Assembly (NCBI GenBank): GCA_000002445.1
Contig: CM000207.1
Span: forward strand, 672,001 to 736,000
Reading direction: 5' to 3'
Source of the DNA: Trypanosoma brucei
Taxonomy: Eukaryota
Length of the DNA stretch: 64,000 bases
The notes below the pieces were generated by a model that was not told the DNA's origin, ran no database searches, and was given only the letters and a program-made list of their open reading frames with translations. Position 1 is the first letter of the stretch. Each line of letters begins with the position of its first letter. Shown here piece by piece: positions 25,373 through 64,000 of this stretch. A program made the translations under genes and the position numbers.

Positions 25373-25759
25373 TGACGGGATTTCTCATCGTCGTTTCCTT
25401 TTTGCTACACTTCCTTTTGTTGGCGCTCTCGTATTTGTTTTCTTTGGGGAGGGGGGGGGGATGGATGACAGGTAAAAACGTATGTCGTGACAGCGAAGTT
25501 TTTTTTTTATTAATTGTTGAAGTGTATATTTTTCCTCTTGCTTTTCTCCAATGTTTAAAGCTACTTTTTTTTTTTTACTATGTCTCTTCAACTGTTCCTC
25601 AGGGTGTGGCGTAGGAGACCACCGTATGCGGGCGTCGTTTGGTTCTATTACTGTAGCCGAGCTGATCGCTGCGGTATATAGTTTACTGTGTTGTCGGCAC
25701 TTTTTACTACATTCGATTGGTTTTATTTAGGTAGAATAGAGGTAAGTCGACCAATCTGT

Positions 25760-29837: not shown

Positions 29838-31634
29838 ATGACCTGCGTAAAAGAGTTGTTGCAGCTTCCAACGGACGAGGTGCGCGCTTGTGTGTTTCCC
29901 CTTTCTGATGTAGAGGTTACTTTAGTCCTCTGTGAATTGGGAAAACTTCTGCAGAGATGGCTTTACGCCACGCGCTACAAGTTGGTTTCCTCATTCGAGG
30001 TATTTCTTCATTTATTTGTGCACGTAGCGGACAGAGAACCGAAAAGGATAGCCAACGCTTTCCTCGGTTCATGTAAAGAGGGCCAGCACCTGTCGTTGCT
30101 GGCAGATGTATGTGAAACCCTCTTCTCACCATCCCGGATTTCCCTTCTTGCTGAAGTGGACGTAGAGCTTTTCTTAACATTCTTAAAGTTCCTCTGTGAC
30201 ATTCCTGTATTGAAGGATCGGCTCGGTAATGTTCTGGTGAAGATTCTCCTGGAATTCCTCTCCGCTGCGGTGGAGCGCGATGGGGACTACCGTCAACCCC
30301 GAGCATGTGCAAGCGTGCTCATCACCCTCACACGTGGGTCAAAGGCAAACAAAGATCGTATGAAGGTGGAGTGCGACCGTTTGGGGGAGACCCTTGAAAA
30401 AACAACTGATGTCTATCTGCGACTTCAGTGTGTTGAGTTGCTGTTTCGACTTCACGTACACGACGGAACAATTTTAGCTACTTCCTCATTGTGTGGGCTA
30501 CTGAAGAGGGGTGTGCCAAAGCTTCCAAACGATGAGCATTTATTAACAAACATGCTGGTCTTGCTAGAGTCCTACGACGCTGACCGAGAGGTCCCACGAA
30601 TTCTGCAGTTTACAACAATCCTTGTTGAAGTGGACAGCATACAGGTATGTGGGCCCACGAAAATTTATTTTTCCCTATCTATGCTAGTAATTATGATGCC
30701 GGGGTACACCGGGGACAACATTACAATTCCATATGAGCATATCCGTTCTATGAAGCTAACTAGGGAACGTAAACTGGGACTTCGTTTGCACGTTGTTCCA
30801 CCGCAGCTGTCGGGTATCATGTCGTTTGAGGCGTTGAAGGACACGTTAACAGTTTCGTTAACGCAGGCGACGGTCGATGCCTTTCGCGCATCAGGTATTC
30901 GGGATTGGGTTGCTGCTAGAAAGAACTTTGCTCCTCTTGGAAGCGCTCGGGAGGTGAGGGACACTTCCACTAAGCTGTATGCGCTGTCGGTTCCAGAGAC
31001 GGAGAAACGTGGGAACACCGAAGGATACAATGCTGGTGAAGGGCGGGCTGCAAAACGGGACGAATTGGGGATGCCTTTCTTGGAAATCAAAGAGGAGGGG
31101 CACCCATCTGGTGGGGGAAGGGGGAACGGAGACATGGGGATGTTTCACGATCTTAATGAGGTCGCCACCAGCAAGGTTACGCGAATGCGCCAAGACTGCC
31201 GCCGGGAGCTTCAATCTGTGTTTCACTTCGCGGAGGAGGAGATAGAGAAGATGCGGCGAACAAACGCATCCGAACGTGATGCTTTCAACACTTCGTTGAA
31301 GGAAGACTTGATAATGATACGGCGCGTGGGGGCTCAAGTGAAAGCGAAAACTGCGGAGTGTGTCGAGTCACTTAACCAGGAGTTGACTGAGACTCAGGCT
31401 CTCGGTGAGCTTCTCAGGGATGAGCTGGGCAAGCTACAAGACAGCCTCACATCAGCGCTGCACAGCTCTGAGGAAGCTGAAGTGGGGCACCTTATTGAGC
31501 TAAAAACGTTGGTTGACGCAGAAATGAAATCTATTAAAGACAAGTTGATGAGGCTAGTTTCTTTAGCAGGGCCATTCCGGACGTTGGGAAACCACACTTT
31601 GCAGCGGGAGCCGGTGGCTGGTGCTAGCACATAG
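29838..31634 (+). CDS. Hypothetical protein, 598 aa, C-terminal coiled coil
   Basis: ATG start; long + strand ORF; no recognised domain. Confidence 0.5.
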   Translation: MTCVKELLQLPTDEVRACVFPLSDVEVTLVLCELGKLLQRWLYATRYKLVSSFEVFLHLFVHVADREPKRIANAFLGSCKEGQHLSLLADVCETLFSPSRISLLAEVDVELFLTFLKFLCDIPVLKDRLGNVLVKILLEFLSAAVERDGDYRQPRACASVLITLTRGSKANKDRMKVECDRLGETLEKTTDVYLRLQCVELLFRLHVHDGTILATSSLCGLLKRGVPKLPNDEHLLTNMLVLLESYDADREVPRILQFTTILVEVDSIQVCGPTKIYFSLSMLVIMMPGYTGDNITIPYEHIRSMKLTRERKLGLRLHVVPPQLSGIMSFEALKDTLTVSLTQATVDAFRASGIRDWVAARKNFAPLGSAREVRDTSTKLYALSVPETEKRGNTEGYNAGEGRAAKRDELGMPFLEIKEEGHPSGGGRGNGDMGMFHDLNEVATSKVTRMRQDCRRELQSVFHFAEEEIEKMRRTNASERDAFNTSLKEDLIMIRRVGAQVKAKTAECVESLNQELTETQALGELLRDELGKLQDSLTSALHSSEEAEVGHLIELKTLVDAEMKSIKDKLMRLVSLAGPFRTLGNHTLQREPVAGAST

Positions 31635-38025: not shown

Positions 38026-40140
38026 ATGAAAAAGAGGAGGCCAATACCCAATCCTACAAAGATCAGTTCCTACTTTTTCCAGCAGCTGGTAAGCCCAGGT
38101 GCAACAACTCCGGATGATAGGAAGGAGCGTGCCCAGTCCGAGCAAACGAAGCGGGCTGCCGCGTCGGTGCTAAGTGAGTCGTTTACACCAGAGGGCGTCG
38201 CTGCTTTCCTTCAGAGTAGGTCAGAAATTGAGCGACAGCACAGTGAAGCGCTAGAGGATGTGCTTGATGCTTGTTGGAAGCGTGTTGAGGACATAATCGA
38301 GCGAAATAAGGAGCGCCGTCGGGTTATAGAGGAGGACATTCCCCAAGTTGTTGCTCCCACAGGCACGTTCACCTTTTGGACACCCGAGGGCGTTGAACAA
38401 TACTACAGCCTGAAAACTTTGCCCGTTTTTGCCAGTGATGAGGAAGGCGTCAGAAGCGACAGCAATGGCTTCGGTACCGACAATAGCAACGCAATGAAAA
38501 GTGATAGAAATGGCCCTGCTGCCGCTGACCATGCAGTAATTTCGCCTCAGGGTCGCTCAGCGGAGGACAAAGTTGACGGAAACGCAGCGGCAGAGGGGGA
38601 CGGGAGGACTGATCCGGTTGCTGAATTTTCATCCCAAAGGGCATGTGGCAGGGCGCCCATTGTGTCGGGAGCCCACCATACGAAGGGGCGGAAATTGACG
38701 GACAAAGAACTTCTTGATGAATCGAAGGTCCCCCATTGTCTGCGTCGGTTGTTCGCCTCACTTCTTAGGCGTCGCAACGAATTTCCCAAATCAACAACAC
38801 TTCTATTTGATGCAATCCAGCGAACGCAGTCGGAGAGATTTCCTGAAATTGAAGCGGTGATCGAAGATGTACCCTTTTCAATGCCTCTTCATCGACCATT
38901 TAGATGCATCGCTGCCTTCGTGGCCCGGTCTTTCGCAGAGAACCCCAAGGGTGAAGCACCTGAGCAGGCATTTGCTGCGACTTTCAAAACGGTGAGCAAA
39001 GATTTGAAGACGGCATACGAGAAACTGCATGAACTAAAGGGTTATGTGCACCCTGTGGGTGAACGAACAGATCGGGCGGAAGTCATCTACAAAACCCTTT
39101 TGGGTGAGTTGCAGGGTCGGAAGAGTCTTCATGAAACCTACGGTATTGATATAGAAGCCATAATGAAAGCATCGGCAGTGGAGCTGAGCGTGATGGAGGG
39201 GGCTCTTAAAGAGTGTAATGAAACATCCCGGAGGTTGCTTGCCACCATTGAGGATCAGACCGCACAGTTCATAGCTGACGTGCACACCAGCCTTGATCGA
39301 CGAGAGGAGGCTATAGAGGAAATTGCCTCGTTCTACAAGCGGGATCGTGATCGCCTGCAGTCGTCATTGCAGAGGAAGATTTATCGTGCGAAGAAGAGTG
39401 AGGAACTTCAAGAAAAGTGCGCTCGACGTATTCGGGAGGTTACGAAGGAGCTTTACATTGAGCAGGTCAATTACGAGGAGCTGCTGCAGGAAATATTGGC
39501 AGAGAGTTTGCTGCTACAGCAGCTGGACAGCAGCTACACGCAGTTGTCAAGTTCGCTTAATAACGCAGCTTCCGTTCATCAGGAATCAAAGATAAGCTCT
39601 ATTAGGGAGGCGCTTCAGCGGTCGGAAGATGTTCGTGTGCATCTCATTGAACAATGTCAGTTCCACATAAACCGACTTAAAAAGGACGAGCACTATCGGC
39701 TCTGCCGCTTAGCCACAAACGCCAAGGATAATGCATTGTGCTGGTCTCGCTGCCTGAACGACCTTTCAACAATATATGAGACTCACTTTAACTCCCTAAA
39801 TGAGAAGTGCAGGGTCTCCACGCAAATGCGTTACCTTCTTTCGTACGAGAAAGATTGCGTTTCTCGTGACCTGAACCAAGTTCAAAAGGAAATGGAACAG
39901 TTAGATAGCAAATGGCACGAAATTTCCACTCTCCTGGAGGAACTCGGTGAACCAGTTCCACCACTTTCATTACTTGAAAAGGACCCCTCGTGTGGAGAGC
40001 TCCGCCACGCTTTGACCGCACTGGCATTAACTCGCCTTGTGCATGGAGAGTCTTCCCACCTTGTGCGCCCCGAACAGTGGAGAGAGCGAACTGTTGTGGC
40101 CACCGGTGACGGCAGTGCGACTGCGAATGATATGTCGTAG
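38026..40140 (+). CDS. Hypothetical coiled-coil protein, 704 aa
   Basis: ATG start; extended heptad-like regions in the C-terminal half. Confidence 0.5.
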   Translation: MKKRRPIPNPTKISSYFFQQLVSPGATTPDDRKERAQSEQTKRAAASVLSESFTPEGVAAFLQSRSEIERQHSEALEDVLDACWKRVEDIIERNKERRRVIEEDIPQVVAPTGTFTFWTPEGVEQYYSLKTLPVFASDEEGVRSDSNGFGTDNSNAMKSDRNGPAAADHAVISPQGRSAEDKVDGNAAAEGDGRTDPVAEFSSQRACGRAPIVSGAHHTKGRKLTDKELLDESKVPHCLRRLFASLLRRRNEFPKSTTLLFDAIQRTQSERFPEIEAVIEDVPFSMPLHRPFRCIAAFVARSFAENPKGEAPEQAFAATFKTVSKDLKTAYEKLHELKGYVHPVGERTDRAEVIYKTLLGELQGRKSLHETYGIDIEAIMKASAVELSVMEGALKECNETSRRLLATIEDQTAQFIADVHTSLDRREEAIEEIASFYKRDRDRLQSSLQRKIYRAKKSEELQEKCARRIREVTKELYIEQVNYEELLQEILAESLLLQQLDSSYTQLSSSLNNAASVHQESKISSIREALQRSEDVRVHLIEQCQFHINRLKKDEHYRLCRLATNAKDNALCWSRCLNDLSTIYETHFNSLNEKCRVSTQMRYLLSYEKDCVSRDLNQVQKEMEQLDSKWHEISTLLEELGEPVPPLSLLEKDPSCGELRHALTALALTRLVHGESSHLVRPEQWRERTVVATGDGSATANDMS

Positions 40141-40596: not shown

Positions 40597-41553
40597 ATGG
40601 CTCCAGTAGTGTGGCCGTGCGCCCTTAACCCATCAAATCACATACTGGTGCAAGAGTTGCTGCTACACGCGTCATTAGGTCGTCACCGCCATTCCCTGAG
40701 GGACAGAAAGGACTTTTTTCACCTTGCTAGGCACATTTCCTGCCTCAAAGAACCTTGCAAATACCTCGTTTCTGCGCCACCAACCTCTCGTGGACCACTG
40801 TGGGCTCCTTGGCGAAGCACAGTCCCCCGGCAAATAGTTTTCAATCGTATACTCCGTCAGTGCACCGATACTTATACGCAATCATCCCATAAAGAAGACA
40901 AAGAAGACGAGGAGGGGAGACGCGTACCAGTGTTTTATGATGATGCCATTGCTCATTTGAACAGAATAGCAGAAGAACTGGGGCCACACGGATACAAAGT
41001 AACTCTGGTCGGAGCACTGCGACGCGGGTGCCCCGTTGCTTCCCGAGCTGAGTTCCTTTTGACGTACGATGATGACGATAGAATCAGGAAACATCGTGAC
41101 AACGACACCACTGTGTCCCACAGTGTTCATTTTGAGCGAGCGATACAGGGACTAAGGGCTTCCGGATACATCAAGCATCATAGGACAAAAAGAAAGATTG
41201 ATATTCACACAAAACAGTACATAACACTTGCTTCTAGGTCCCATTCACATCCAGAAACCCTCTCCACATCACGAGAGGAAAGACAGGTTTTGTCTATTAC
41301 CTGGTCAAAACCACAACAGTTTCACACGCGGCAGCTGTTCCTCACGGGCCCGAACCCATTCGTGGTGCACCTTGTGCTGCTGGCCCATGCGAAGGGCCTG
41401 GGACTGGATCCTTGCGGGTTGTACAAATCCCAATTAGGGTTTCGGGAGTCTGTGGCACTTGAATGTGAAAGGGACATCTTCGCTGCGTTGCAGTTGCCGT
41501 ACGTTGAGCCCATTCACCGCCATGCATACTGCCGCGTTCACAACCTGTTTTGA
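40597..41553 (+). CDS. DNA polymerase X family (pol beta-like) protein, 318 aa, with non-canonical catalytic residues
   Basis: ATG start. The C-terminus (ERDIFAALQLPYVEPIHRHA) matches pol beta [28 protein letters not shown]...AHAKGLGLD matches FTGS..F...RAHALEKGF, RKIDIH matches RRIDIR (Asp256), and ALRRG matches SFRRG. The GDMD carboxylates are replaced by SRAE. Confidence 0.65.
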   Translation: MAPVVWPCALNPSNHILVQELLLHASLGRHRHSLRDRKDFFHLARHISCLKEPCKYLVSAPPTSRGPLWAPWRSTVPRQIVFNRILRQCTDTYTQSSHKEDKEDEEGRRVPVFYDDAIAHLNRIAEELGPHGYKVTLVGALRRGCPVASRAEFLLTYDDDDRIRKHRDNDTTVSHSVHFERAIQGLRASGYIKHHRTKRKIDIHTKQYITLASRSHSHPETLSTSREERQVLSITWSKPQQFHTRQLFLTGPNPFVVHLVLLAHAKGLGLDPCGLYKSQLGFRESVALECERDIFAALQLPYVEPIHRHAYCRVHNLF

Positions 41554-43543: not shown

Positions 43544-44629
43544 ATGGTCGTCAAACGCCGTGGAAATGGCCGGTTAGGCAAACCTCCGACAGATACTGGA
43601 GTGAGTGAGAACTCTACCGGTGGAACCCCACCCCCGGAGTCTGCTTCTCAACGTGGCGGGGCGAAACAAACTACGGTTGCTTCCGCGATCAAGCAGCCCG
43701 CTTCGATGCCCGACGGCTCGTTGTCGCAGGATCGACGAAAGCGCCGCCGTAGGTTATCGGTGCCAGAGGAGGTGGCCCATGCCGTTGTGGAGGGGGAAGA
43801 AGCTACAGGTGCTGTAAGGGATGAAAGACTACCCGAAAATACTCGAGTTGTTGAACCTCAATTGAATGATCATGATGGTAAAGAGAGATACCCTCTGGGC
43901 GTTGTCCAGTTCCCAGAGGAGCAGCGCCCGTGGAGGAGCGCAAGGCGTAAAGCTGGGGTAGCTGAGGGAGGTAGTGACGAGGTTAACGCCGCACAGCTTC
44001 CTCCGACGGGCAACGCTGTGCCGCAGAAACCAACTAGGCGTTTAGGTAGAGCATCTGCCCCTCCGATACCACCTGTCGGTACTGTTGAACATGATTTGCA
44101 GACAACTGGTGGAACGTGTACGAGTGCTCCTATTGCGGGTGACCGCGCTTCCCGAACGTTTCAGGCGGCGGCGAGCCCCTCCGAAGATATTAAACAAAGG
44201 CCGCATAGAATTCCATTGATAATAGATAAGGGGCGTTTCAGTAAGCAAAAAGTCGAGGCTCCTCCCGGGACCGCAACCGTGGTGCCCATGGACACTGGAG
44301 AAAACCAGGCTGGCGTTTGTGAAGCAAACTCCGCACCACCAACTTCCTGTTCCCACCGTGGCGCCCAGCGCTTGGGGCATGGCCAACCTGCTGATGGCAC
44401 AAGTGGTGCTGTTGATAGTATAGAGGAGGGGCCCGGGCGCGGAATTGAGGAAGCCTCCGTGGACGCGCGACGTAGGAGGTTTATGCAGGTGCCGGTGAGC
44501 AGAATCTCGTTGTATACACGGCTTGCCGAGGGGGGTTTGGATGCTGCCGACCGCCCATTTGTCACATGTGTGGTAAAACATGCCCAATCGTCTGTTTCCG
44601 CATGGGTATCCGGGTTCTTGTCGCCTTGA
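43544..44629 (+). CDS. Hypothetical basic, low-complexity protein, 361 aa, copy 1
   Basis: ATG start. Rich in R/K/P/S/G. Duplicated at 50031-51116 with three amino-acid differences. Confidence 0.5.
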   Translation: MVVKRRGNGRLGKPPTDTGVSENSTGGTPPPESASQRGGAKQTTVASAIKQPASMPDGSLSQDRRKRRRRLSVPEEVAHAVVEGEEATGAVRDERLPENTRVVEPQLNDHDGKERYPLGVVQFPEEQRPWRSARRKAGVAEGGSDEVNAAQLPPTGNAVPQKPTRRLGRASAPPIPPVGTVEHDLQTTGGTCTSAPIAGDRASRTFQAAASPSEDIKQRPHRIPLIIDKGRFSKQKVEAPPGTATVVPMDTGENQAGVCEANSAPPTSCSHRGAQRLGHGQPADGTSGAVDSIEEGPGRGIEEASVDARRRRFMQVPVSRISLYTRLAEGGLDAADRPFVTCVVKHAQSSVSAWVSGFLSP

Positions 44630-50030: not shown

Positions 50031-51116
50031 ATGGTCGTCAAACGCCGTGGAAATGGCCGGTTAGGCAAACCTCCGACAGATACTGGAGTGAGTGAGAACT
50101 CTACCGGTGGAACCCCACCCCCGGAGTCTGCTTCTCAACGTGGCGGGGCGAAACAAACTACGGTTGCTTCCGCGATCAAGCAGCCCGCTTCGATGCCCGA
50201 CGGCTCGTTGTCGCAGGATCGACGAAAGCGCCGCCGTAGGTTATCGGTGCCAGAGGAGGTGGCCCATGCCGTTGTGGAGGGGGAAGAAGCTACAGGTGCT
50301 GTAAGGGATGAAAGACTACCCGAAAATACTCAAGTTGTTGAACCTCAATTGAATGATCATGATGGTAAAGAGAGATACCCTCTGGGCGTTGTCCAGTTCC
50401 CAGAGGAGCAGCGCCCGTGGAGGAGCGCAAGGCGTAAAGCTGGGGTAGCTGAGGGAGGTAGTGACGAGGTTAACGCCGCACAGCTTCCTCCGACGGGCAA
50501 CGCTGTGCCGCAGAAACCAACTAGGCGTTTAGGTAGAGCATCTGCCCCTCCGATACCACCTGTCAGTACTGTTGAACATGATTTGCAGACAACTGGTGGA
50601 ACGTGTACGAGTGCTCCTATTGCGGGTGACCGCGCTTCCCGAACGTTTCAGGCGGCGGCGAGCCCCTCCGAAGATATTAAACAAAGGCCGCATAGAATTC
50701 CATTGATAATAGATAAGGGGCGTTTCAGTAAGCAAAAAGTCGAGGCTCCTCCCGGGACCGCAACCGTGGTGCCCATGGACACTGGAGAAAACCAGACTGG
50801 CGTTTGTGAAGCAAACTCCGCACCACCAACTTCCTGTTCCCACCGTGGCGCCCAGCGCTTGGGGCATGGCCAACCTGCTGATGGCACAAGTGGTGCTGTT
50901 GATAGTATAGAGGAGGGGCCCGGGCGCGGAATTGAGGAAGCCTCCGTGGACGCGCGACGTAGGAGGTTTATGCAGGTGCCGGTGAGCAGAATCTCGTTGT
51001 ATACACGGCTTGCCGAGGGGGGTTTGGATGCTGCCGACCGCCCATTTGTCACATGTGTGGTAAAACATGCCCAATCGTCTGTTTCCGCCTGGGTATCCGG
51101 GTTCTTGTCGCCTTGA
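50031..51116 (+). CDS. Hypothetical basic low-complexity protein, 361 aa, copy 2
   Basis: Offset by 6,487 bp from copy 1. Differs by R/Q, G/S and A/T substitutions. Confidence 0.5.
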   Translation: MVVKRRGNGRLGKPPTDTGVSENSTGGTPPPESASQRGGAKQTTVASAIKQPASMPDGSLSQDRRKRRRRLSVPEEVAHAVVEGEEATGAVRDERLPENTQVVEPQLNDHDGKERYPLGVVQFPEEQRPWRSARRKAGVAEGGSDEVNAAQLPPTGNAVPQKPTRRLGRASAPPIPPVSTVEHDLQTTGGTCTSAPIAGDRASRTFQAAASPSEDIKQRPHRIPLIIDKGRFSKQKVEAPPGTATVVPMDTGENQTGVCEANSAPPTSCSHRGAQRLGHGQPADGTSGAVDSIEEGPGRGIEEASVDARRRRFMQVPVSRISLYTRLAEGGLDAADRPFVTCVVKHAQSSVSAWVSGFLSP

Positions 51117-54527: not shown

Positions 54528-54752
54528 GAGCGCCCGCGCCTTCCTTTTATTTGTTCTCCATGGGATATTGCTGTTCTTTAACTTCCTAACTGTATGGTTT
54601 TCTGTCGCATGTGTCGTCACAGACGCGCATCATTTTTTATACGACTAGATATGCCGCGTTACAGAGACCTATCGATTGCCTGATTAAGTACTCTTGCAGG
54701 TGTTGCTTTGTCTTCTCCGCACTATTACTCATTCCCTTTTTCTTTACTGATT
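54294..54752. repeat. Partial third repeat unit, 5' part (Pol X 3' fragment plus downstream 225 bp)
   Basis: Identical to 41320-41778 and 47807-48265. Sequence diverges from the RPS7-containing units at 54753. Confidence 0.85.
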
Positions 54753-54776
54753 GGTGTTGATAGTATATTTTTTGAA

Positions 54777-56432
54777 ATGAGTGTCACCGGCTTCGGTGAT
54801 GTTGTTGTATCTTTTGATGCGGAAGGTGTTGTAGTTGTTGGGCTAACTTATGAGCGTTCAAATGCGACACAGTGGTTGCTGCTCCCGGAAATTCCCGTTG
54901 AAGTCCCTCTTGTTAAGGTTCTTCGTGATCTTGAGGAATCTGGTGCTTCTCGACAACGGTCACCTGGTCGAATGAGGGGAGAAGGAGTTAAAGGAGATGT
55001 TTGTTTGCCAGACAGTGAAGTTGGATCACCTTGTAACGCGTGCGGTGTTAATAACATTCGTAGTGATTGTTGCATTTCTGTTGCTCGTGTGGGGCACATT
55101 CCGGAACGAAATCGCGCATACTGTTTGCTTTTGGAGTTGTCATCTTCTTCTGATGCCGCTGATGTGCAAAGAGATCTGCTGCACGTCGAGTGGGCTAATG
55201 GGCCCTTGTGTGCACCGCAGTTTTTGCAGTCCGTCGGCCGTATAATGAGGGTGGAGCATGAAGGGCGTGATGCCGCATGCGTGAGCAACTGCGCGGGTTG
55301 GCGGACACAAGTGTCTACGGACAATGCGGAAGATGTTTGCCTACGTGTCCTTTGCAGTGTGTCGTGCGGTGTTGATGGGGCGTCATCTCGGCGGCAGTTG
55401 GAAAGTGAAAAGGAGATATCTAGCGTTGCGCTCCGGAGAGACGCTCCTCTAGCACCGATAGAAGAGTTTTGCCCCATCTGCCGTGAGGAAATCGCATCTG
55501 GAAGAACGTGCGTTGTTACTATGTGCACCCACGTCTTCCACCTTGTTTGCCTCATGAAGCACTTAGAAGATGTTAGTTCATATTGCCCTCTTTGTCGTTT
55601 TTCGATGTCGTCTCTTGAAACTAAGTGCAACGCGTGTGGAACGTGCCAGGACTTGTGGAGTTGTTTAGTTTGCGGTTGGGTGGGATGTGGTAAGGGGCGG
55701 CACGGACATAGCATACGGCACTTCCACAGCACAGGGCACTCGTGTGCCGTGCAGAATAGCACTTCACGCATATGGAACTATCGCGCCAGCACATTTCTCC
55801 ACCACCAACTAGCTATGGAATTGGGTTACGAAGACGACGCAAGGGCGGAGCGTGCTGCAGCGCAGGAGGAGGGCAGGTCGGCCCTCTCTGTTCGTCACAG
55901 CGGGGAAAAACCCAGGGTCAGTGCTTCATCCTATTGGCGCAGTAGGTGGTGGTGGGACGAAAAGGAAGAGGAAGCTGCACAAGAGCTCAATGGCGACTAT
56001 GTGCGGGAGTATTATCTCCGTGTAATGGAGGAACTCATGCAGGAACAGGCGGACTATTTTGAGGGGCGTACAATGGTGGAGGGAGAGAATGCGGCTGTAC
56101 CCATCGGGACATGGAAGAAGCTGCAAAGCGCAGAACGGCGTCAACGGCGTAGTCTTGCTTCGAGGTACATTGCTGGTTTGCGCCGTATTGCGCTACACAG
56201 CCAGATGGCCGTCAACAATTTTGTGAAGCAGGAGGTCTTATGGAGGGATTCGTTGCGTGAAGAGTTATTACTCCAATCGCATACCAACCAAGGCCTGAAT
56301 GCCAGGATATCGAGCTTAGGAGCGAATATCGACAAGGCCAGACAGCGTGGCGAACAGCAGGTTGCGTTAAAGGAAGAGGAGTTAAGGGATCTGCAGGGGA
56401 GACTTGAGAGTTTGATGAGGGATTTGGAGTGA
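54777..56432 (+). CDS. BRAP2/ETP1-like E3 ligase: RING-H2 + ZnF-UBP + C-terminal coiled coil
   Basis: RING-H2 region: CPICREEIASGRTCVVTMCTHVFHLVCLMKHLEDVSSYCPLCRF. ZnF-UBP region: CNACGTCQDLWSCLVCGWVGCGKGRHGHSIRHFHSTGHSCAV. Track start at 54708 is TTG inside the shared repeat; the first ATG is at 54777, after the repeat boundary. Confidence 0.75.
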   Translation: MSVTGFGDVVVSFDAEGVVVVGLTYERSNATQWLLLPEIPVEVPLVKVLRDLEESGASRQRSPGRMRGEGVKGDVCLPDSEVGSPCNACGVNNIRSDCCISVARVGHIPERNRAYCLLLELSSSSDAADVQRDLLHVEWANGPLCAPQFLQSVGRIMRVEHEGRDAACVSNCAGWRTQVSTDNAEDVCLRVLCSVSCGVDGASSRRQLESEKEISSVALRRDAPLAPIEEFCPICREEIASGRTCVVTMCTHVFHLVCLMKHLEDVSSYCPLCRFSMSSLETKCNACGTCQDLWSCLVCGWVGCGKGRHGHSIRHFHSTGHSCAVQNSTSRIWNYRASTFLHHQLAMELGYEDDARAERAAAQEEGRSALSVRHSGEKPRVSASSYWRSRWWWDEKEEEAAQELNGDYVREYYLRVMEELMQEQADYFEGRTMVEGENAAVPIGTWKKLQSAERRQRRSLASRYIAGLRRIALHSQMAVNNFVKQEVLWRDSLREELLLQSHTNQGLNARISSLGANIDKARQRGEQQVALKEEELRDLQGRLESLMRDLE

Positions 56433-58060: not shown

Positions 58061-61000
58061 ATGGCATCGGAGGCAGCGTTATCGCTTCCTGCTGATGATG
58101 AAAAGGTGCAGGCGGATGCTGCTACTAATCACGGTACCACAACGCCCCCCTCTTCAGTAGAGACAGCACCAAGTACGGCCACTGGTGCTGTTGCACCGAC
58201 GGGTTCCAGCGAACGGGAAAGCAACGTAGTAATGCCCGCGGTTGCTGTTGTGCCCGCATTGGAAGCAAGTGAATGTCAGGTGCAAACAGAGCCGGGAGGG
58301 AACGACCCTATTACGTCTGGGGAGCTTTCGCTCGTTAATGACCATACGGCACCGCAAAAGCTGAATGCTGATGTGAAGTTGTTCTCGGGTGACAACCGGC
58401 CTTCAAAGTCGTTGGCTGCACCTTTCAGGGGCCCTAGTAATCGACCACAAGGAATTCCCCCTGGCGGCGGCACCCCTTTATGGCCCCCCAATGCTCCTCT
58501 TGGCCAAACTGTGATGTCGCTTCCGCATCCACCCATGCCTCCTCATCAACTTTATCAACCTCCTTTGATGATTCCAACACTGGTGCCGAATATGCATCCA
58601 CTGATGGCACCGTTCATCTCAGGCATGGCCCACGCCCCACAGCCGCCCCCGCCCCCCCCACCGCCGCCAGGGTTTGGACCCCCACCGGGTTCGTTTGGGC
58701 CACTGCCGTTTCCCGCAGCATTGAATGGACCTCTTGGCGCACCGCCTCCGCCCCTCATGATGCCCAATCCACCCGATTTGGCAGTTTTTCAACCGCGGTT
58801 CCCTGGTGACAAGATGGCGGCGTCGCAGTCATCCCAGGGTCCGGCGCTTTCGAAGCAAAAATCACATGTGTTGTCGGCTTCATCACCAAGTGCGAAGATA
58901 ATTGTTGGTAATGCTTCCCTTGCCGCACATGTGTCAAATGATCCGCCTAAATTCTCGTGCGTATTGCTTTCTGGAATATCAGCAGTTGGCAAAACAACAA
59001 TGGGAAGGGAGTTAGTTAACGAACTACAGGCAGATGGTTTAGGCTGGGTATTTTTTTCTGGTGCTGATTTCATTTCAGCTCCTACAACGAGGCGGGCCGT
59101 GTGGGAGACCACAAAGGAGGTATTTGATGCCCTGGAGAAGCAGCTGGAGAGGCTTCTTGACCAACAGAAGGAAAAGCGAGACTTGAAGGGTCTTGTCATC
59201 GACAAAAATGTGAAGAACGTAGAGGACATTTTTTATTTGGCGGCGCTGCTAAGATCGAAGCAGATCCCATTTGTTGGAATTGTAGGCATGGAAGCTGATG
59301 ATGATGAGGTGCTTCTGCAGCGCATGGGTGGCGAGCGGGAACTTCATGAAAAGCTAAAGTACCACCGTGTTATTCATTATAGGATCCGTAATTTAGCCAG
59401 GAAAGCGGCTATGTACCGAGAGATTGACGCCAACAAGCCGAGGCAAGAGGTTCTCAACGCATTGCGCACTAAGGTGCTGGGTTGTTGCGCCCAACCACCG
59501 CAGAATGGTATACTTTCTGATCTATACGTGAAATCGGCTTCCATTTCAATGGTTGATGACTATGCCGAATACTACACGGTTGTGACACAACTTTTCGACT
59601 TAATTAAACCATTGAATGGCTCTGCACACTTCCCCGGAACAACGAACTACGTTCCCTTGTCAACCCGTGATATGGCCGACAAGAATCGTGTGAGTGCAAT
59701 CAAGGAATCCTACGGTGCCCGTCGATTTAACAAAGGCACCCGCTACCTGCTCATGTATGATAAGGGGAAATTGTACCTGATTTCGACTCATCTTAGGGCG
59801 GTATTACGCCTGTCTCCCAAAGCGCTGTTAGGAGATAAGATGGCTTCGGTAACGTGCGCCGTGTTTGAGGGTGATTTAGTGAGAATAAGGGAGGACCCGC
59901 AGACCGAAATATTTCTTGTTTTTGACGTTCTCTTTTGGAATAATGCAGCGGATCCGGAGGGCAATGAGGTGACACAGATGAGTATGGAACAGCGTCATGC
60001 CCTTCTGAGCGCCCACCTATGCAGTGAAAGCAGTGCCTTCTCCCCTACGGGTACTGACTGCGTTGTGGCCTACCGAGCCACGGTAAAGCTTGAGGAGATT
60101 CCAAAACTTCTGGAGCCATGCGGTTTCCCAGGTGAGGGCATAATATTCCAACCCACTTCTTCGGTACACAATCTGAACAAAGTGTATTTGTGGCGACCCG
60201 CGAGCAGTATTTCAGTAGATTTTCGCATTGGTGCGTTGAGGGGGACACGAGAAGAGAGTGCTGTTTCGGAGAGCGGTGAATTGTGTGCGGATGCGGGCTC
60301 CCCAACGCTGAATGATTCTGCTAATCCCGGTGCCACCGCTGGCCAATCTCAGTCCCAACTGTCAAATAGTAGTAACCCGGCAGGGCAGAGCGCTGTGGGC
60401 TCCGGAGGGTCTAGCCATGTGCGTTGTAATGAAGGCGGTCCCACGCGTACCTTTGAGCTTGAAGTCTATGACAAGCAAGAAAAGGAATACACACAATTCG
60501 AAGACTGTACAGTGGATGTGAGGCACCCAGACGTGGTAGAGGGTTGCATATGCACTTGTGCGCTCGCGGACGAAAAGGGCCGTAAGTGGAGTTTCCAGAA
60601 TATCTGCTACGATGCGGTTCGTCCTGCATACAAGCGAGATGTAAGTTCACTGCTCGAGCACTCTATCATTCCAAAGTCCAAACTTCTTCAGTGGCTCGCT
60701 AGCGAAAAGATTACACCACCACTTCCAAGTGGTACAGTGCCACAAGCGGCGACTTCGAGTGCCCCACAGCAACAATTCTGGGAGGCGGTTTCGAATTCCA
60801 TTCGACAACCTCCACCGCATGCACCCCCGGCGTACGCCAGCGCCGTCCTCATGCAGCATGCTATGCCCCGACCAAACCCATCAGGGGCCCACGGCGGCGG
60901 CACAAACCTTGCAGCACTTGCAGAGGTAGTTGCCCCAACTGAAATTTCAAAGGGACACCAACCGGTGCTAACATCAACCTCTAGCGCGGGTGTGGGCTCT

Positions 61001-62005
61001 CCTCCCCGGGGGCTGTCAATTGGTCAACCACCAAGCTACAAGATGCATGGGCTTTTGCAGCAGGGGCTATCGACGTCACCGGGAACAAAGAAGGTTGTGG
61101 GAGTGGCACCCGACAACACTGTGGCTGCTGTTGGTGGCTCTTCCGCGGCGGGCGGCAGCGCAACGAACACGTATGTGGTGCAGTTGTTAACGTCAATGGT
61201 TCGCTCCGTACGCACTGTTCGTAAGGATGGGGTGGGCGACGAGTGCCAAAGTACAGCGGGTGCGACTCGACAGGAACAGCACCCTTCATGTGTCGATCGG
61301 TCAGACGGCGATCAGCACAGACGAGGGCACACTCGTTTTGATGATGTGAAGGATAGGAGGGAGCGGGGTCACGGGAAAATGCGGCGGGCCACCAGTGGTA
61401 CACCTGGTCGCTGTATGGGGTGTGGCAAGGACAAGCCAGCGGAGGAACTTCGCTTCCGCCCAAAGGACAATTTGTACTGCTATGACTGCTGGGCAGCGAA
61501 GGGTTGGGAAACATGCCGTGAGTGTGGAGAGTTTAGTAGGGGCTACCACGAACGCACGCGTGAGTGTGTGGGTGAGTTTTACTGCAACAACTGTTGGGAG
61601 AAGTTCAAGGAAGGAGACAACCAAAAAAAGGAAGGGAGGAAAGAAGATACCGAAAACCAACAAGGGGAGAGGAGGCGGCGAAGACCCAAGCGGCAAATTC
61701 AAACAGTAGAAGTGAAGGATGAAGGGGAGAGCAAAACTGCAAGCGATTTTACAGCGGAGGCAGCGGGGAGAGACGGTGCGGCGAAGCGGCGGGCGCGGCG
61801 TGGACAGAAGAACGACACCAAAGACCGTGCAGCTGTTGATATTCATGTTGGATGTGAGGAAGTTAGCGAAGGGAGGACCGCCGCGAACGACACGAATGCC
61901 GCGGAACAGGCACAGGAGGACGGCACGAAGTCAAATAAGAGGCATGGAGTTGAGAGTAGATCCAACAAAAGGCATAGGCGGAAGGAGGCAGTTAGGGGCG
62001 AATAA
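58061..62005 (+). CDS. Large multidomain protein: Pro-rich N-terminus, P-loop NTPase/kinase-like domain, capping-enzyme-like covalent nucleotidyltransferase domain with OB region, C-terminal Cys-rich zinc-binding module and basic tail
   Basis: ATG start. Walker A (LLSGISAVGKTTMG) at about aa 303-314. NTase-like motifs: FNKGTRYLLMYDKGKLYLI (motif I-like), AVFEGDLV...IFLVFDVLFW (motif III), EGIIFQP (motif IV), VYLWRP...VDFRI (motif V-like). Cys-rich tail: CMGCGKDK...YCYDCW...CRECGEF...YCNNCW at aa 1118-1179. Confidence 0.7.
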   Translation: MASEAALSLPADDEKVQADAATNHGTTTPPSSVETAPSTATGAVAPTGSSERESNVVMPAVAVVPALEASECQVQTEPGGNDPITSGELSLVNDHTAPQKLNADVKLFSGDNRPSKSLAAPFRGPSNRPQGIPPGGGTPLWPPNAPLGQTVMSLPHPPMPPHQLYQPPLMIPTLVPNMHPLMAPFISGMAHAPQPPPPPPPPPGFGPPPGSFGPLPFPAALNGPLGAPPPPLMMPNPPDLAVFQPRFPGDKMAASQSSQGPALSKQKSHVLSASSPSAKIIVGNASLAAHVSNDPPKFSCVLLSGISAVGKTTMGRELVNELQADGLGWVFFSGADFISAPTTRRAVWETTKEVFDALEKQLERLLDQQKEKRDLKGLVIDKNVKNVEDIFYLAALLRSKQIPFVGIVGMEADDDEVLLQRMGGERELHEKLKYHRVIHYRIRNLARKAAMYREIDANKPRQEVLNALRTKVLGCCAQPPQNGILSDLYVKSASISMVDDYAEYYTVVTQLFDLIKPLNGSAHFPGTTNYVPLSTRDMADKNRVSAIKESYGARRFNKGTRYLLMYDKGKLYLISTHLRAVLRLSPKALLGDKMASVTCAVFEGDLVRIREDPQTEIFLVFDVLFWNNAADPEGNEVTQMSMEQRHALLSAHLCSESSAFSPTGTDCVVAYRATVKLEEIPKLLEPCGFPGEGIIFQPTSSVHNLNKVYLWRPASSISVDFRIGALRGTREESAVSESGELCADAGSPTLNDSANPGATAGQSQSQLSNSSNPAGQSAVGSGGSSHVRCNEGGPTRTFELEVYDKQEKEYTQFEDCTVDVRHPDVVEGCICTCALADEKGRKWSFQNICYDAVRPAYKRDVSSLLEHSIIPKSKLLQWLASEKITPPLPSGTVPQAATSSAPQQQFWEAVSNSIRQPPPHAPPAYASAVLMQHAMPRPNPSGAHGGGTNLAALAEVVAPTEISKGHQPVLTSTSSAGVGSPPRGLSIGQPPSYKMHGLLQQGLSTSPGTKKVVGVAPDNTVAAVGGSSAAGGSATNTYVVQLLTSMVRSVRTVRKDGVGDECQSTAGATRQEQHPSCVDRSDGDQHRRGHTRFDDVKDRRERGHGKMRRATSGTPGRCMGCGKDKPAEELRFRPKDNLYCYDCWAAKGWETCRECGEFSRGYHERTRECVGEFYCNNCWEKFKEGDNQKKEGRKEDTENQQGERRRRRPKRQIQTVEVKDEGESKTASDFTAEAAGRDGAAKRRARRGQKNDTKDRAAVDIHVGCEEVSEGRTAANDTNAAEQAQEDGTKSNKRHGVESRSNKRHRRKEAVRGE

Positions 62006-64000
62006 ACAAAAAGGTAGGGGTTCCACACTTAACTGTCACGGTTATGTGGCAGGTTTATGCAGCAAGCGGTGACATTTGCCAATTTGTAGTGTGTTTCCCT
62101 CCCCCTCCCCCTGCTGAGGGGGGAAGGGGGAGGGATCCGCACGTTTTTTTGCGCGCATAATACTTCCCTTATTTCTGTTAGTGGACGAATGTCGTTTGCT
62201 TTTCGTGTTTTCTCAACCTGCAGGAGGTGGTGTGAAAAAAAAGAATTTCATGAAAGAAGCCATGGGGTAGCCCGTTATGAAACTTCTCGGCCGCCTAAGG
62301 GGAAGACAAGGGGGAAGAGAGCTTGAGGAGGGAGGGATTTAGGATGAAAAATGTGTACCATTTATTGTACAGGGTGCATCTAAATGATTGACGCCGTTGT
62401 GCGTTAACTCATTACAACAGTTGTTATCTTTTCATTCCCCCCCCTCCCCACTGCATCTTCTTTTGTTTTCCTCGAAAGGGGGAGTTTTCTTTCTTTCTTT
62501 CTTTTCATTCAACTCTTCCGTGACTGCCGTTACTTTTGGACCGCGCATGTCTCCCTCTACATACTGGAGTAGCGAGCGATGTTTCCGTTCCATATTTCCT
62601 CAACCGAAGGATGAAAAAAAATAAAAATAAAAAGAAATGGGCGAAACGATGGTGTGGAATCGATCCTTGATGCGGAGGGGGAAAGTGTGTGTTTGTGTTT
62701 TTGTTTGTGTGGAAGGTAAGATCGAAGCAGAAAAAAGAATAAGAAGGATAAGAAGAAAAGGAAAAAAAAAAGGATTAACAACCGTGCAAGGGGAACGATG
62801 ACATCTGCTTTTTTTTTTTTTTTTAATTTTCTTCTTACGCATTTCATTTCATTTCATTTCACTTCTGTTGTTTTTTTTTGTTTTTTGTTGTTGTCGCTCC
62901 TGTTAGACATCATTCCTAAAATTGCGCGGTGAAGTTCTTACGGTGTGCCGGGAAGTATGAAGGAGGGAGAACGGAACAGAAAGCGAGCGATAAAGCGAGT
63001 GTTAAGGGAGTAAGAACAAAGGGAAAGGAAGAGAAACAGAGAAATGTATGGGAACAAATAAAATAAGAGAAAAGAAAGGAAAAACAAACAAACAAACAGA
63101 GAGATGAAAGGATGCAGAGGAAAAGGAGGGGGAAAAGTGTTCCCGTTGTTGCCTACTTCCTTTCCACAATCCTCTTCTCTTTCTTCCTTTCCTACGTGTA
63201 CTATTTTCCCAGTGATTCACTATCATTTTTTCTTTTTCTTTTTTTTTTTTAATGGTTATTTGTTTTTTGTTCATTCACAAGAAAAAAATCATTTTCTTGT
63301 TTTTTTTTCCGATGTTGTTGCTGTTGTTATTGTTATTGTTATTGTTATTGTTGTTGTTTTGTTTTCGAGACAATCCCTACGGAGAATTATCACACCTCTT
63401 TTTTTTCTTTTTTTTTTTGTATCATTTTTTTTGTTTTTACAACCTAAATTATTAAAGGAGTGTGTGTGTGTGTGTGTGTGGAAGGAGGAGAGGAGGAGAG
63501 GGGGAGAAAGAAATAAATAGAATGAAATGAAAAAGTGAAAAAGGGGTTTAATAACCTCTTGTTCTTCTTCGTTTTGTTTTTTTTTTTTACAGTTCATCTT
63601 TACAAGGCTGCAGGCAGGGGAGATGAAAAGAGGATGGGATGAAACCCCCTCCTCCAAAAAACAACGACAAAAACAACAACAAAGACAATAATAATAATAA
63701 TAACAATATCAGTAACAGTATCCAAAAGATGAAAAGTAAACAAAAAATAATAAGAATAATAAATGAAGCATCAAGAGGGGGAAAGAGCTACCGTGCGGTA
63801 AAGTATGGAATACGGTGTACGTTTCATGCAGGCGCGCACATGTACTTATATGTGTGTATATTTTTCCTCATCTTGTTTTTTTTGTTTGTTTTCCATTATC
63901 TTTTTTTTCTTTTTCTTTTTCTGTCTTTTTTCTGTTTTTTTTTTCTGTTTTTATGTTTATATTTGCGTTACTTTTTTTTTTCCCTCCTCCTCTTTTAGTT
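62006..64000. other. Gene-free low-complexity region rich in T-tracts, A/G-tracts and several microsatellites; possible end of transcription unit
   Basis: No ORF longer than about 140 aa, and those present are repeat-encoded. Microsatellites: (GTTATT)n near 63311-63350, (TG)n at 63463-63480, (AAT)n at 63686-63706, (CATTT)n at 62836-62860. Confidence 0.5.

What the first reader, a model, noticed from the sequence alone, without database searches (positions are those of the whole stretch)
58061..62005. 1314-aa protein with capping-enzyme-like architecture (P-loop domain + GTase-like NTase/OB) but degenerate catalytic motifs, plus Pro-rich N-terminus and Cys-rich C-terminal module
A Walker-A domain followed by a covalent-nucleotidyltransferase domain recalls the trypanosomatid capping enzyme Ce1 (P-loop domain + guanylyltransferase). 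Motifs III (FEGDLV...FLVFDVLFW) and IV (EGIIF) are clear. Motif I reads NKGTRY (a KxDG-like motif without the Asp, compared with KADGTRYMML). Motif V reads YLWRP (the LKWKP lysines are changed), and the motif VI region lacks the conserved lysine. Flanking these are a 150-aa proline-rich low-complexity region and a C-terminal cluster of 16 Cys/His (aa 1118-1179) before a highly basic tail. This combination suggests either a divergent or inactive capping-enzyme paralogue with nucleic-acid-binding additions, or a ligase-like enzyme.
Basis: partly seen in the sequence, partly recalled or inferred. Interest (0 to 1): 0.65.

Follow-up and report, generated by a model that had tools for sequence, protein, structure and literature searches.

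The report
HYP2: a dead capping-enzyme paralogue
This ORF is the Trypanosoma brucei quorum-sensing gene HYP2 (Tb927.9.4080), and its core is a full-length copy of the parasite's cytoplasmic capping enzyme (kinase-like P-loop domain plus guanylyltransferase) that has lost the catalytic residues for capping, so it most likely acts as an mRNA-bound adaptor, not an enzyme that adds caps.

Summary
Window 58061-62005(+) is one 1314-aa ORF, Tb927.9.4080 (HYP2), on T. brucei chromosome 9. HYP2 is already known to be required for stumpy formation, to activate expression when tethered to mRNA, and to partner with DRBD3 and MKT1.

The core (aa ~282-885) is collinear with the Ce1 cytoplasmic capping-enzyme family across the P-loop, NTase and OB domains (hhalign 99.85%, E=7.7e-31). 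The family profile hits human and mouse guanylyltransferase (E=4.6e-9). The top structural matches are Cgt1, Pce1 and human GTase.

Leishmaniinae and most bodonids keep RRKxDG, whereas all four named Trypanosoma species have F or L there. The lysines of motifs V and VI are absent from every aligned orthologue. The P-loop domain is the best conserved part, with the Walker A lysine intact.

Additions are an ancestral N-terminal PAM2-like motif (degenerate in T. brucei), two Cys4 zinc sites (8 invariant Cys) and a basic tail.

Best reading: a pseudo-guanylyltransferase mRNP adaptor with a possibly active nucleotide-binding P-loop. The gene is known. Within the searchable papers, the capping-enzyme pseudoenzyme reading is not.

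The parts
58061..62005 (+). Whole ORF, 1314 aa = Tb927.9.4080 (TbHYP2)
   Evidence: PMC3493610
58361..58390 (+). Degenerate PAM2-like motif LNADVKLFSG (aa 101-110). The ancestral form is LNANAKSF[TV]P.
   Evidence: The strict pattern LNxxAxx[FWY]xP is present near the N-terminus in 17/33 orthologues, against 0.03 expected by shuffling; alignment
58391..58840 (+). Proline-rich low-complexity region (aa 111-260, 31% Pro)
   Evidence: poorly conserved (3% invariant columns)
58904..59500 (+). P-loop NMP-kinase-like domain (aa 282-480). Walker A is G305..G310-K311-T312-T313 (nt 58973-58999). Also D381-K382, R421, K431/K433 and R436.
   Evidence: Pfam AAA_18/AAA_17. Foldseek hits adenylate, UMP-CMP and thymidylate kinases. 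Most conserved part, 32% invariant columns. Walker A Lys kept in 30 of the 31 orthologues that cover this region. Aligned to the Ce1 P-loop.
59696..60238 (+). Guanylyltransferase-like NTase domain (aa 546-726). Motif I remnant R554-R-F556-N-K558-G559-T-R561 (nt 59720-59743). Motif III E603-G-D605, IIIa F618..W626, IV E692-G693. Motif V remnant Y709-L-W-R-P713 (nt 60185-60199).
60239..60451 (+). Ser/Gly/Ala-rich disordered insert between NTase and OB (aa 727-797)
   Evidence: pLDDT 25-28; no invariant columns; variable length in orthologues
60452..60715 (+). OB domain plus two following helices (aa 798-885). Motif VI remnant W843-SFQNICY-D851-A852-VRP855-A856 (nt 60587-60628). It lacks the DK..PN lysine, and in T. 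brucei also both Arg of RxR.
   Evidence: (mRNA_cap_C in 4/9 orthologues)
60824..60835 (+). Conserved [PL]PxY motif (PPAY, aa 922-925) in the otherwise variable spacer. A second PPSY is at aa 990-993.
   Evidence: P923 and Y925 nearly invariant
61412..61597 (+). Tandem Cys4 zinc module (aa 1118-1179): C1118-x2-C1121...Y-C1140-x2-C1143-W and C1152-x2-C1155...FY-C1175-x2-C1178-W
61616..62002 (+). Charged, net-basic tail (aa 1186-1314; 26% K+R, pI 9.8; RRRRR at 1204)
   Evidence: not conserved in sequence

Best explanation
The ORF encodes TbHYP2, a paralogue of the kinetoplastid cytoplasmic capping enzyme Ce1 (N-terminal NMP-kinase-like P-loop domain fused to a guanylyltransferase NTase-OB module).

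Shown:
- Homology to Ce1 is collinear over both domains.
- The guanylyltransferase active site is not intact. The motif I nucleophile Lys is Phe556. The motif V lysines are Leu710 and Arg712. The motif VI Lys is Ala852.
- Motifs V and VI are degenerate in every orthologue back to bodonids. The motif I Lys was lost later, in Trypanosoma and a few other lineages.
- The P-loop domain is the most conserved part and keeps its Walker A Lys/Thr, Asp381 and lid basic residues.

Inferred:
- HYP2 cannot form the Lys-GMP intermediate and is a pseudo-guanylyltransferase.
- The NTase-OB module is kept as a binding surface. Candidate ligands are a nucleotide, the cap or 5' end of mRNA, or a protein partner. 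Snurportin-1 is a precedent, since it uses the same fold to bind a cap.
- The P-loop domain still binds, and perhaps hydrolyses or transfers from, ATP.

Together with the PAM2-like motif, the two Cys4 zinc sites and the basic tail, the protein would sit on cytoplasmic mRNPs. There it would raise the stability or translation of bound mRNAs through its published partners DRBD3 and MKT1 (the MKT1-PBP1-PABP axis). That would account for its activator phenotype in tethering assays and its requirement for slender-to-stumpy differentiation.
For: Identity with HYP2.

Homology to capping enzymes:
- Profile against PDB: human and mouse GTase, E=4.6e-9.
- Pfam mRNA_cap_enzyme in 5/9 orthologues and mRNA_cap_C in 4/9.
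- Foldseek: Cgt1 3.8e-10, Pce1 5.1e-10, human GTase 5.3e-9; NMP kinases for the N-terminal domain.
- hhalign to the Ce1 family: Prob 99.85, E=7.7e-31, 488 columns. BLASTP to T. cruzi cytoplasmic capping enzyme: E=3e-9, with F556 aligned to the KADG lysine.

Motif states across 33 orthologues and 17 paralogues. Ce1-like and diplonemid paralogues keep KxDG, KWKP and RxDKxxPN, so the alignment register is sound.

Conservation by domain: P-loop 32% invariant columns, NTase 14%. The NTase/P-loop identity ratio is similar whether or not the Lys is kept. This argues that the constraint on the NTase domain is not catalytic.

Non-catalytic precedent: snurportin-1 appears among the Foldseek hits (2e-5), and paralogue P0036 hits Pfam SPN1_m3Gcap_bd.

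Published function:
- Required for stumpy formation (PMC6842576; PMC10589647).
- Up-regulator when tethered; interacts with DRBD3 and MKT1 (PMC4055773; PMC3985637). The DRBD3 association is RNase-resistant (PMC3493610).
- In the mRNA-bound proteome and in cytoplasmic puncta (PMC6299225).
- Detected in PABP proteomics.

PAM2-like motif ancestral.
Against: - No biochemical test exists for any step of the mechanism.
- Most bodonid and Leishmaniinae orthologues keep the motif I Lys, motif III and motif IV. Some nucleotide chemistry may therefore survive in those lineages, and the family may not be simply 'dead'.
- The AF2 core model has only moderate confidence (pLDDT 63).
- Cap or 5'-end binding by the NTase-OB module is pure analogy.
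- The T. brucei PAM2-like motif departs from consensus at two positions. PABP association in the DRBD3 complex was RNase-sensitive, so a direct PABP contact in T. brucei is doubtful.
- HYP2 has no MKT1-binding H(N/D)PY motif.
Confidence: 0.6

Rival explanations
1. HYP2 is still an active covalent nucleotidyltransferase (an RNA ligase or unconventional capping enzyme). It would use a non-canonical nucleophile such as K558, or a different mechanism. This echoes the published annotation 'ATP-dependent polynucleotide ligase'.
For: - The NTase-OB fold is intact, and motifs III and IV are kept.
- DNA ligases appear among the Foldseek hits at about 1e-6.
- One orthologue hits Pfam DNA_ligase_A_M at 8.7e-5.
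- The review PMC4403954 lists 'adenylation domain / ATP-dependent polynucleotide ligase'.
- Many orthologues keep the KxDG lysine.
Against: - K558 is not conserved even within Trypanosoma (S, D, S).
- The lysines of motifs V and VI, which contact the nucleotide phosphates in this superfamily (established knowledge from Ceg1 and PBCV-1 mutagenesis), are absent in all aligned orthologues.
- T. brucei has additionally lost both Arg of motif VI.
- GTases outrank ligases by sequence and by structure.
Confidence: 0.07
2. The folded core is an inert relic. HYP2 would work only through its disordered Pro/Gln/Met-rich regions, zinc fingers and basic tail, as a granule or condensate scaffold with no nucleotide binding.
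For: - More than half of the protein is low-complexity.
- It localises to cytoplasmic puncta (PMC6299225).
- It has many protein partners.
Against: The P-loop domain is the most conserved segment: 32% invariant columns, 84% mean majority frequency, and the Walker A Lys in 30 of the 31 orthologues that cover it. The low-complexity regions have 0-3% invariant columns. Purifying selection of that strength on a nucleotide-binding signature is hard to explain for an inert relic.
Confidence: 0.15
3. HYP2 is an RNA 5'-kinase that has lost its own transferase. The P-loop domain would phosphorylate 5'-monophosphate RNA to ppRNA, as the Ce1 N-terminal domain does. The dead GTase would hold the RNA 5' end and hand it to Ce1 or protect it.
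For: - The P-loop domain is homologous and collinear with that of Ce1. The Ce1 N-terminal domain has RNA kinase activity (PMC11417388, abstract).
- Walker A, D381 and the lid residues are conserved.
Against: - The Ce1-invariant D-R-F is D-K-N in HYP2, and other Ce1-invariant P-loop residues differ.
- There is no evidence linking HYP2 to recapping.
- The phenotype is developmental, not a general effect on mRNA stability.
Confidence: 0.15

Closest known systems
TbCe1 / kinetoplastid cytoplasmic (re)capping enzyme (P-loop RNA kinase + guanylyltransferase)
   Same: Same two-domain order and fold, collinear over 488 profile columns. The Walker A P-loop is shared, as are NTase motifs III, IIIa and IV and the OB domain. 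Both are cytoplasmic. Some Ce1-family members also carry N-terminal PAM2-like motifs (P0090).
   Different: Ce1 keeps KADG, KWKP and RxDKxxPN and is a proven enzyme. HYP2 has F556, LWRP and D-A. HYP2 is about twice as long, with a Pro-rich N-terminus, a disordered insert between NTase and OB, a zinc module and a basic tail.
TbG5-IP (Tb927.11.14590) and TbG1-IP (Tb927.11.6720), capping-enzyme homologues bound to EIF4E6/EIF4G5 and EIF4E5/EIF4G1
   Same: These are cytoplasmic capping-enzyme-like proteins (NTPase + GTase, or GTase + MTase) attached to mRNA-regulatory complexes. Both G5-IP and HYP2 localise to cytoplasmic puncta (PMC5750579; PMC6299225). A cap-binding role for the G5-IP GTase domain has been proposed (PMC10810786).
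   Different: I could not obtain the T. brucei G5-IP or G1-IP sequences, so the relationship is untested here. The nearest non-orthologous relatives found were prokinetoplastid proteins P0037/P0040 (E 1e-42 to 1e-36). They share the lysine-less motifs V and VI and one zinc unit, but could not be tied to G5-IP. HYP2 is not reported in eIF4F-like complexes.
Snurportin-1 m3G-cap-binding domain
   Same: A guanylyltransferase-fold NTase domain without catalytic residues, used as a binding module. It appears among the structural hits (3gjx, E=2e-5). The Pfam SPN1_m3Gcap_bd model is hit by paralogue P0036.
   Different: It has no P-loop domain and no OB-domain homology was shown. It is a nuclear import adaptor. 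Cap binding by HYP2 is not demonstrated.
Canonical mRNA guanylyltransferases (human RNGTT GTase, Cgt1, Pce1, Ceg1)
   Same: NTase + OB fold. Profile E=4.6e-9 to 3s24. Best Foldseek hits.
   Different: The nucleophile Lys and the lysines of motifs V and VI are missing. The T. brucei protein itself does not reach Pfam thresholds.

Membership tests
Tb927.9.4080 / TbHYP2 (identity of the gene) | Chromosome 9, + strand, 3945-nt CDS, 1314 aa, 142.1 kDa | tested here: met
   Supplement row 'Tb927_09_v5.1:781021-784965(+) length=1314'. 142.1 kDa in PMC3493610.
mRNA guanylyltransferase / covalent nucleotidyltransferase superfamily | NTase + OB fold, significant sequence or profile similarity | tested here: met
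   Family profile E=4.6e-9 to 3s24/3rtx. Foldseek 3.8e-10 to 1p16. Pfam PF01331 in 5/9 and PF03919 in 4/9 orthologues. The T. brucei sequence alone is sub-threshold.
mRNA guanylyltransferase / covalent nucleotidyltransferase superfamily | Motif I KxDG with the nucleophile lysine | tested here: not met
   T. brucei has R-R-F556-N-K558-G559. The position is L in T. cruzi, T. theileri and T. vivax, and K is retained in Leishmaniinae and most bodonids.
mRNA guanylyltransferase / covalent nucleotidyltransferase superfamily | Motifs III, IIIa and IV (acidic and aromatic nucleotide-contact residues) | tested here: met
   E603-G-D605, F618/D622/W626, E692-G693. D605 varies (A/V/I) in three orthologues.
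mRNA guanylyltransferase / covalent nucleotidyltransferase superfamily | Motif V K-x-K and motif VI RxDKxxPN | tested here: not met
   T. brucei has L710-W-R712-P and D851-A852. No lysines are present in any aligned orthologue, whereas the Ce1-like paralogues keep them.
mRNA guanylyltransferase / covalent nucleotidyltransferase superfamily | Formation of a covalent enzyme-GMP (or AMP) intermediate | not testable with these tools
   Needs recombinant protein and [alpha-32P]NTP labelling.
Ce1-type bifunctional architecture (P-loop kinase + GTase) | N-terminal NMP-kinase-like P-loop domain collinear with a C-terminal GTase domain | tested here: met
   hhalign Prob 99.85, E=7.7e-31 from Walker A to the post-OB helices. 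The Ce1 identity of the comparison set comes from 'RNA capping enzyme, cytoplasmic [T. cruzi]'.
Ce1-type bifunctional architecture (P-loop kinase + GTase) | RNA 5'-kinase and guanylyltransferase activities | not testable with these tools
   Walker A is intact, but the GTase motifs are degenerate.
PAM2-motif PABP (MLLE) ligands | PAM2 consensus xxLNxxAxxFxP | tested here: inconclusive
   17/33 orthologues match strictly, against 0.03 expected. T. brucei reads LNADVKLFSG (Ala to Val, Pro to Gly). Pfam PAM2 gives only a weak hit, E=0.065, in one orthologue. MLLE binding was not tested.
DksA/TraR C4 zinc finger (annotation used in the literature for HYP2) | Similarity to DksA-type zinc finger by profile or fold | tested here: not met
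LIM domain | Two contiguous zinc fingers with a 2-residue spacer and the C2HC-C4 (or C2HC-C2CH/D) ligand pattern | tested here: not met
   All eight ligands are Cys. There are 8 residues between the fingers (C1143 to C1152). phmmer gives E=0.13 to LMO4, and the best Foldseek hit is LMO2 at E=0.016, TM 0.27.

The most novel reading that the evidence does not exclude
HYP2 would be a nucleotide- or cap-sensing switch on mRNPs.

(a) Its dead guanylyltransferase domain could read the cap-4 or 5' end of selected mRNAs as an eIF4E-independent cap reader, recruiting MKT1-PBP1-PABP.

(b) Its adenylate-kinase-like P-loop domain could bind AMP, ATP or AMP analogues directly. The screen that found HYP2 was described as an RNAi screen for the AMP/cAMP response. 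From my own knowledge of Mony et al. 2014, not checked here, the selection was for resistance to a cell-permeable cAMP/AMP analogue.

Either way, the quorum-sensing or energy signal would be coupled straight to mRNA fate.
Probability: 0.15. Interest if true: 0.78.

Novelty: new member of a known kind. Interest (0 to 1): 0.45.

Why it matters
HYP2 is one of the few validated effectors of trypanosome quorum sensing. It is used routinely as a tool to block stumpy formation, yet the papers I could read assign it no molecular mechanism. They call it a 'hypothetical' with 'truncated AAA+/adenylation domains' or a 'DksA zinc finger'.

Placing it firmly as a Ce1-derived pseudo-guanylyltransferase with a conserved kinase-like P-loop domain turns it into a testable object, through K311A, NTase-OB deletion, zinc-site and PAM2 mutants, cap and nucleotide binding assays.

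It also puts HYP2 beside the capping-enzyme homologues G5-IP and G1-IP that decorate trypanosome eIF4F-like complexes. This suggests that kinetoplastids have repeatedly recycled capping-enzyme folds as mRNP regulators.

The catalytic lysine is lost in all four named Trypanosoma species in the set but kept in Leishmania. This gives a natural comparison for asking whether any chemistry is left.

Tried and rejected
- Ligase reading. Rejected as the primary reading, because GTases rank above ligases by profile and by fold, and the OB domain matches mRNA_cap_C.
- K558 as a shifted nucleophile. Rejected, because it is not conserved in other Trypanosoma.
- Link to G5-IP. I tried to tie the nearest paralogues (P0037/P0040) to TbG5-IP by a homologue search. 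It returned only prokinetoplastid sequences, so that link is unverified.
- Papers not held. Freire et al. 2014 (PMC4135740) and Mony et al. 2014 (Nature) could not be read.
- The afdb50 fold library was not available.
- Literature search. Searches for the UniProt or GenBank accession found nothing. The PAM2 + guanylyltransferase + trypanosome search found nothing. No held paper applies 'capping enzyme' or 'guanylyltransferase' to HYP2 itself.
- Short linear motifs. There is no MKT1-binding H(N/D)PY motif. The two YxxxxL-hydrophobic matches are not conserved as eIF4E-binding motifs.
- The EIF4E3/4 interactome supplements do not list the protein.

Full report
**What is there**

Window 58061-62005(+) is a single uninterrupted ORF of 1314 aa. 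It is 100% identical to T. brucei TREU927 EAN76489.1/XP_803708.1 (UniProt Q38FD1), annotated 'hypothetical protein, conserved'. A published MaxQuant table carries the header 'Tb927.9.4080 ... location=Tb927_09_v5.1:781021-784965(+) | length=1314'. That is the same strand, the same 3945-nt length and the same protein length. The computed mass of 142,126 Da equals the 142.1 kDa listed for Tb927.9.4080 in PMC3493610. The ORF is therefore Tb927.9.4080, known as TbHYP2.

**What is already published on HYP2**

- HYP2 RNAi gives 'inducible monomorphism' in mice (PMC6842576) and delays commitment to stumpy forms (PMC10589647).
- It raises reporter expression when tethered to an mRNA (PMC4055773).
- It interacts with DRBD3 in an RNase-resistant way (PMC3493610).
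- It interacts with MKT1 by yeast two-hybrid and TAP, although it has no HNPY motif (PMC3985637).
- It is in the mRNA-bound proteome and localises to cytoplasmic puncta (PMC6299225).
- It is needed for normal BARP expression during RBP6-driven development (PMC7952579).
- In the searchable library, no paper applies 'capping enzyme' or 'guanylyltransferase' to HYP2 itself.

**Check of the architecture**

The T. brucei sequence alone gives only sub-threshold P-loop hits in Pfam (AAA_18, 28.6 bits against a cut-off of 29.4). It also gives a weak phmmer hit to human guanylyltransferase 3s24 (E=0.21, aa 555-727). Family evidence settles the question:

- Seventeen trypanosomatid orthologues were found and aligned.
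- A 9-sequence profile of aa 275-885 (A3) hits human and mouse capping-enzyme GTase at E=4.6e-9 to 5.3e-9.
- 5/9 members hit Pfam mRNA_cap_enzyme (best 6.7e-10) and 4/9 hit mRNA_cap_C.
- An AF2 model of aa 275-885 (pLDDT 63, with the folded parts mostly 65-88) retrieves Candida Cgt1 (3.8e-10), S. pombe Pce1 (5.1e-10) and human GTase (5.3e-9) as top PDB matches.
- For the N-terminal domain, the same model retrieves adenylate, UMP-CMP and thymidylate kinases.

**Relationship to Ce1**

A profile search of 1.84 billion representatives gave three groups:

- 31 hits below 1e-30. These are orthologues across trypanosomatids and bodonids, for example Neobodo designis.
- Two-domain P-loop+GTase relatives in Prokinetoplastina (Papus).
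- Two-domain P-loop+GTase relatives in diplonemids (Diplonema, Namystynia, Flectonema).

One group (P0047, P0059, P0063, P0077, P0090, P0142) is the Ce1 family. P0047 retrieves 'RNA capping enzyme, cytoplasmic [Trypanosoma cruzi]' at E=1e-112. hhalign of the HYP2 core against this group gives probability 99.85%, E=7.7e-31. The 488 aligned columns run from Walker A through NTase and OB to the following helices. Direct BLASTP of the T. brucei core against T. cruzi Ce1 gives 23% identity over 485 aa, E=3e-9.

**State of the catalytic motifs**

- Motif I in T. brucei is R554-R-F556-N-K558-G559-T-R561. In every alignment the nucleophile lysine of KxDG aligns with F556, and K558 aligns with the Asp.
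- T. cruzi, T. theileri and T. vivax have Leu at the nucleophile position, and S, D or S where T. brucei has K558.
- Leishmania, Leptomonas, Angomonas, Phytomonas and most bodonid-type orthologues keep RRK-x-[DESN]-G.
- The Lys is also replaced in an unnamed clade (P0023/29/32/33: I or L). It is Arg in Neobodo (P0025) and in P0014.
- Motif III ([ED]-G-[DE]-L), motif IIIa and motif IV ([DE]-G) are mostly retained.
- Motif V is [x]-W-[RQ]-x-P, with no lysines, in all aligned orthologues (Ce1: K-W-K-P).
- Motif VI is R-x-R-x-D-[VAL], with no D-K..P-N lysine, in all aligned orthologues. T. brucei alone has also replaced both arginines (N847, C849).
- The Ce1-like and diplonemid methyltransferase-fused paralogues in the same alignment keep all canonical motifs. 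The degeneracy is therefore real and not an alignment artefact.

From established mutagenesis of Ceg1 and PBCV-1 capping enzymes (my own knowledge), the motif I Lys is the GMP acceptor, and the lysines of motifs V and VI contact the phosphates. On that basis I infer that T. brucei HYP2 cannot make the covalent intermediate.

**What is conserved instead**

Fractions of invariant columns among the 17 trypanosomatid orthologues:

| Segment | Invariant columns |
|---|---|
| P-loop domain | 32% |
| Zinc module | 23% |
| OB domain | 16% |
| NTase domain | 14% |
| Low-complexity regions | 0-3% |

The Walker A Lys is present in 30 of the 31 orthologues whose sequence covers it. D381, R421, K431/K433 and R436 are invariant or nearly so, and they align with Ce1-invariant residues. 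The ratio of NTase to P-loop identity is about the same in pairs that have lost the Lys as in pairs that keep it. For example, T. theileri/T. cruzi is 66/86, and L. infantum/Angomonas is 57/80. The NTase domain therefore appears constrained for something other than catalysis in both groups.

**Additions to the core**

(i) PAM2-like motif. A strict PAM2-like motif, LNxxAxx[FWY]xP (typically LNANAKSF[TV]P), lies near the N-terminus of 17/33 orthologues, against 0.03 expected by shuffling. Many of the orthologues without it look N-terminally truncated in the alignment. The T. brucei copy is degenerate (LNADVKLFSG, aa 101-110), and T. vivax has none. Similar motifs occur in Ce1-like and diplonemid paralogues.

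(ii) Proline-rich region. A 31%-Pro low-complexity region spans aa 111-260.

(iv) Tail. The C-terminal tail is net-basic and poorly conserved.

**Interpretation**

Shown: HYP2 is a Ce1-type paralogue, and its guanylyltransferase active site is degenerate. The degeneration was stepwise. Motifs V and VI were lost before bodonids and trypanosomatids diverged. The motif I Lys was lost later in Trypanosoma, with further loss in T. brucei. The P-loop domain is under the strongest constraint.

Inferred: the NTase-OB module serves as a binding platform. Snurportin-1 provides a precedent, since its cap-binding domain has this fold. It appears among the structural hits, and its Pfam model is hit by paralogue P0036. 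A cap-binding role has also been proposed for the GTase domain of G5-IP (PMC10810786). The P-loop domain probably still binds nucleotide. Combined with the published DRBD3 and MKT1 interactions and the tethering phenotype, the most economical model is a cytoplasmic mRNP adaptor that stabilises or activates a subset of mRNAs needed for stumpy development. I put this at about 0.6.

**Rivals**

- A still-active non-canonical transferase or ligase (0.07).
- An inert core with function only in the disordered and zinc regions (0.15). The conservation of the P-loop domain contradicts this.
- An RNA 5'-kinase that has lost its transferase (0.15). This overlaps with the main model.

**Limits**

- Nothing here is biochemical.
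- Several key papers were not held.
- The organism names for many orthologues are unknown.

**Verdict**

The gene is the already-named HYP2, so this is not a new gene. The reading as a capping-enzyme pseudoenzyme gives a concrete and apparently unpublished handle on the mechanism of a known quorum-sensing factor. That reading rests on the lineage-specific loss of the lysine, the ancestral PAM2-like motif and the corrected description of the zinc module. Interest is moderate (0.45). I class it as a new member of a known kind, namely the capping-enzyme homologues used as mRNP regulators in kinetoplastids.

Noticed in passing
orthologues of the ORF (P0005-P0009, P0012-P0016, P0029, P0032, P0033), C-termini: 13/33 orthologues end in a CaaX-like C-x-x-Q (for example ...EEKRSGGGCRQQ in Leishmania), which suggests prenylation. 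The motif is absent from T. brucei (ends ...AVRGE), from the other named Trypanosoma species and from the bodonid-type sequences.
   Followed up: partly
window 60824-60835 (aa 922-925) and 61028-61039 (aa 990-993): A [PL]PxY motif directly after the OB domain is nearly invariant in trypanosomatid orthologues (PPAY in T. brucei), and T. brucei has a second PPSY. It could be a WW-domain ligand. Not examined further.
   Followed up: no
window 43544-44629 and 50031-51116 (+): Two 361-aa ORFs about 6.5 kb apart are 99% identical (358/361). They have no Pfam match, so this looks like a recent segmental duplication of a gene of unknown function.
   Followed up: partly
window 20776-22335 (+): An ORF with a strong reverse-transcriptase domain (RVT_1, E=4.8e-43). 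It is presumably a retroelement, possibly of the ingi/RIME type, inserted in the gene array.
   Followed up: no
window 54708-56432 (+): The upstream neighbour encodes a RING-H2 + zf-UBP protein with a C-terminal coiled-coil-like region, a BRAP2/IMP-like architecture.
   Followed up: no
window 12395-16600 (+), 38026-40140 (+): Large ORFs (1401 aa and 704 aa) with no Pfam family at E<=0.001. Other neighbours are dymeclin (35235-37433), a kinetoplastid PH-like domain protein (29838-31634), a DNA_pol_B_thumb domain protein (40597-41553) and a WD40 protein (25688-26809).
   Followed up: no
window 62006-64000: The downstream intergenic region drops to 38% GC. It has a (TGTTAT)n array at 63313-63363 and T-rich repeats at 63862-63952.
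   Followed up: no
paralogues P0036 (Papus ankaliazontas), P0043/P0046 (P0043 = Diplonema japonicum; P0046 unnamed): Some euglenozoan relatives fuse the P-loop domain, the GTase and a cap guanine-N7 methyltransferase in one chain. P0036 also has two of the HYP2-type zinc units. The diplonemid 660-aa proteins (P0051, P0070, P0120) have lost the Walker A lysine but mostly keep KxDG, which is the reverse of HYP2.
   Followed up: partly
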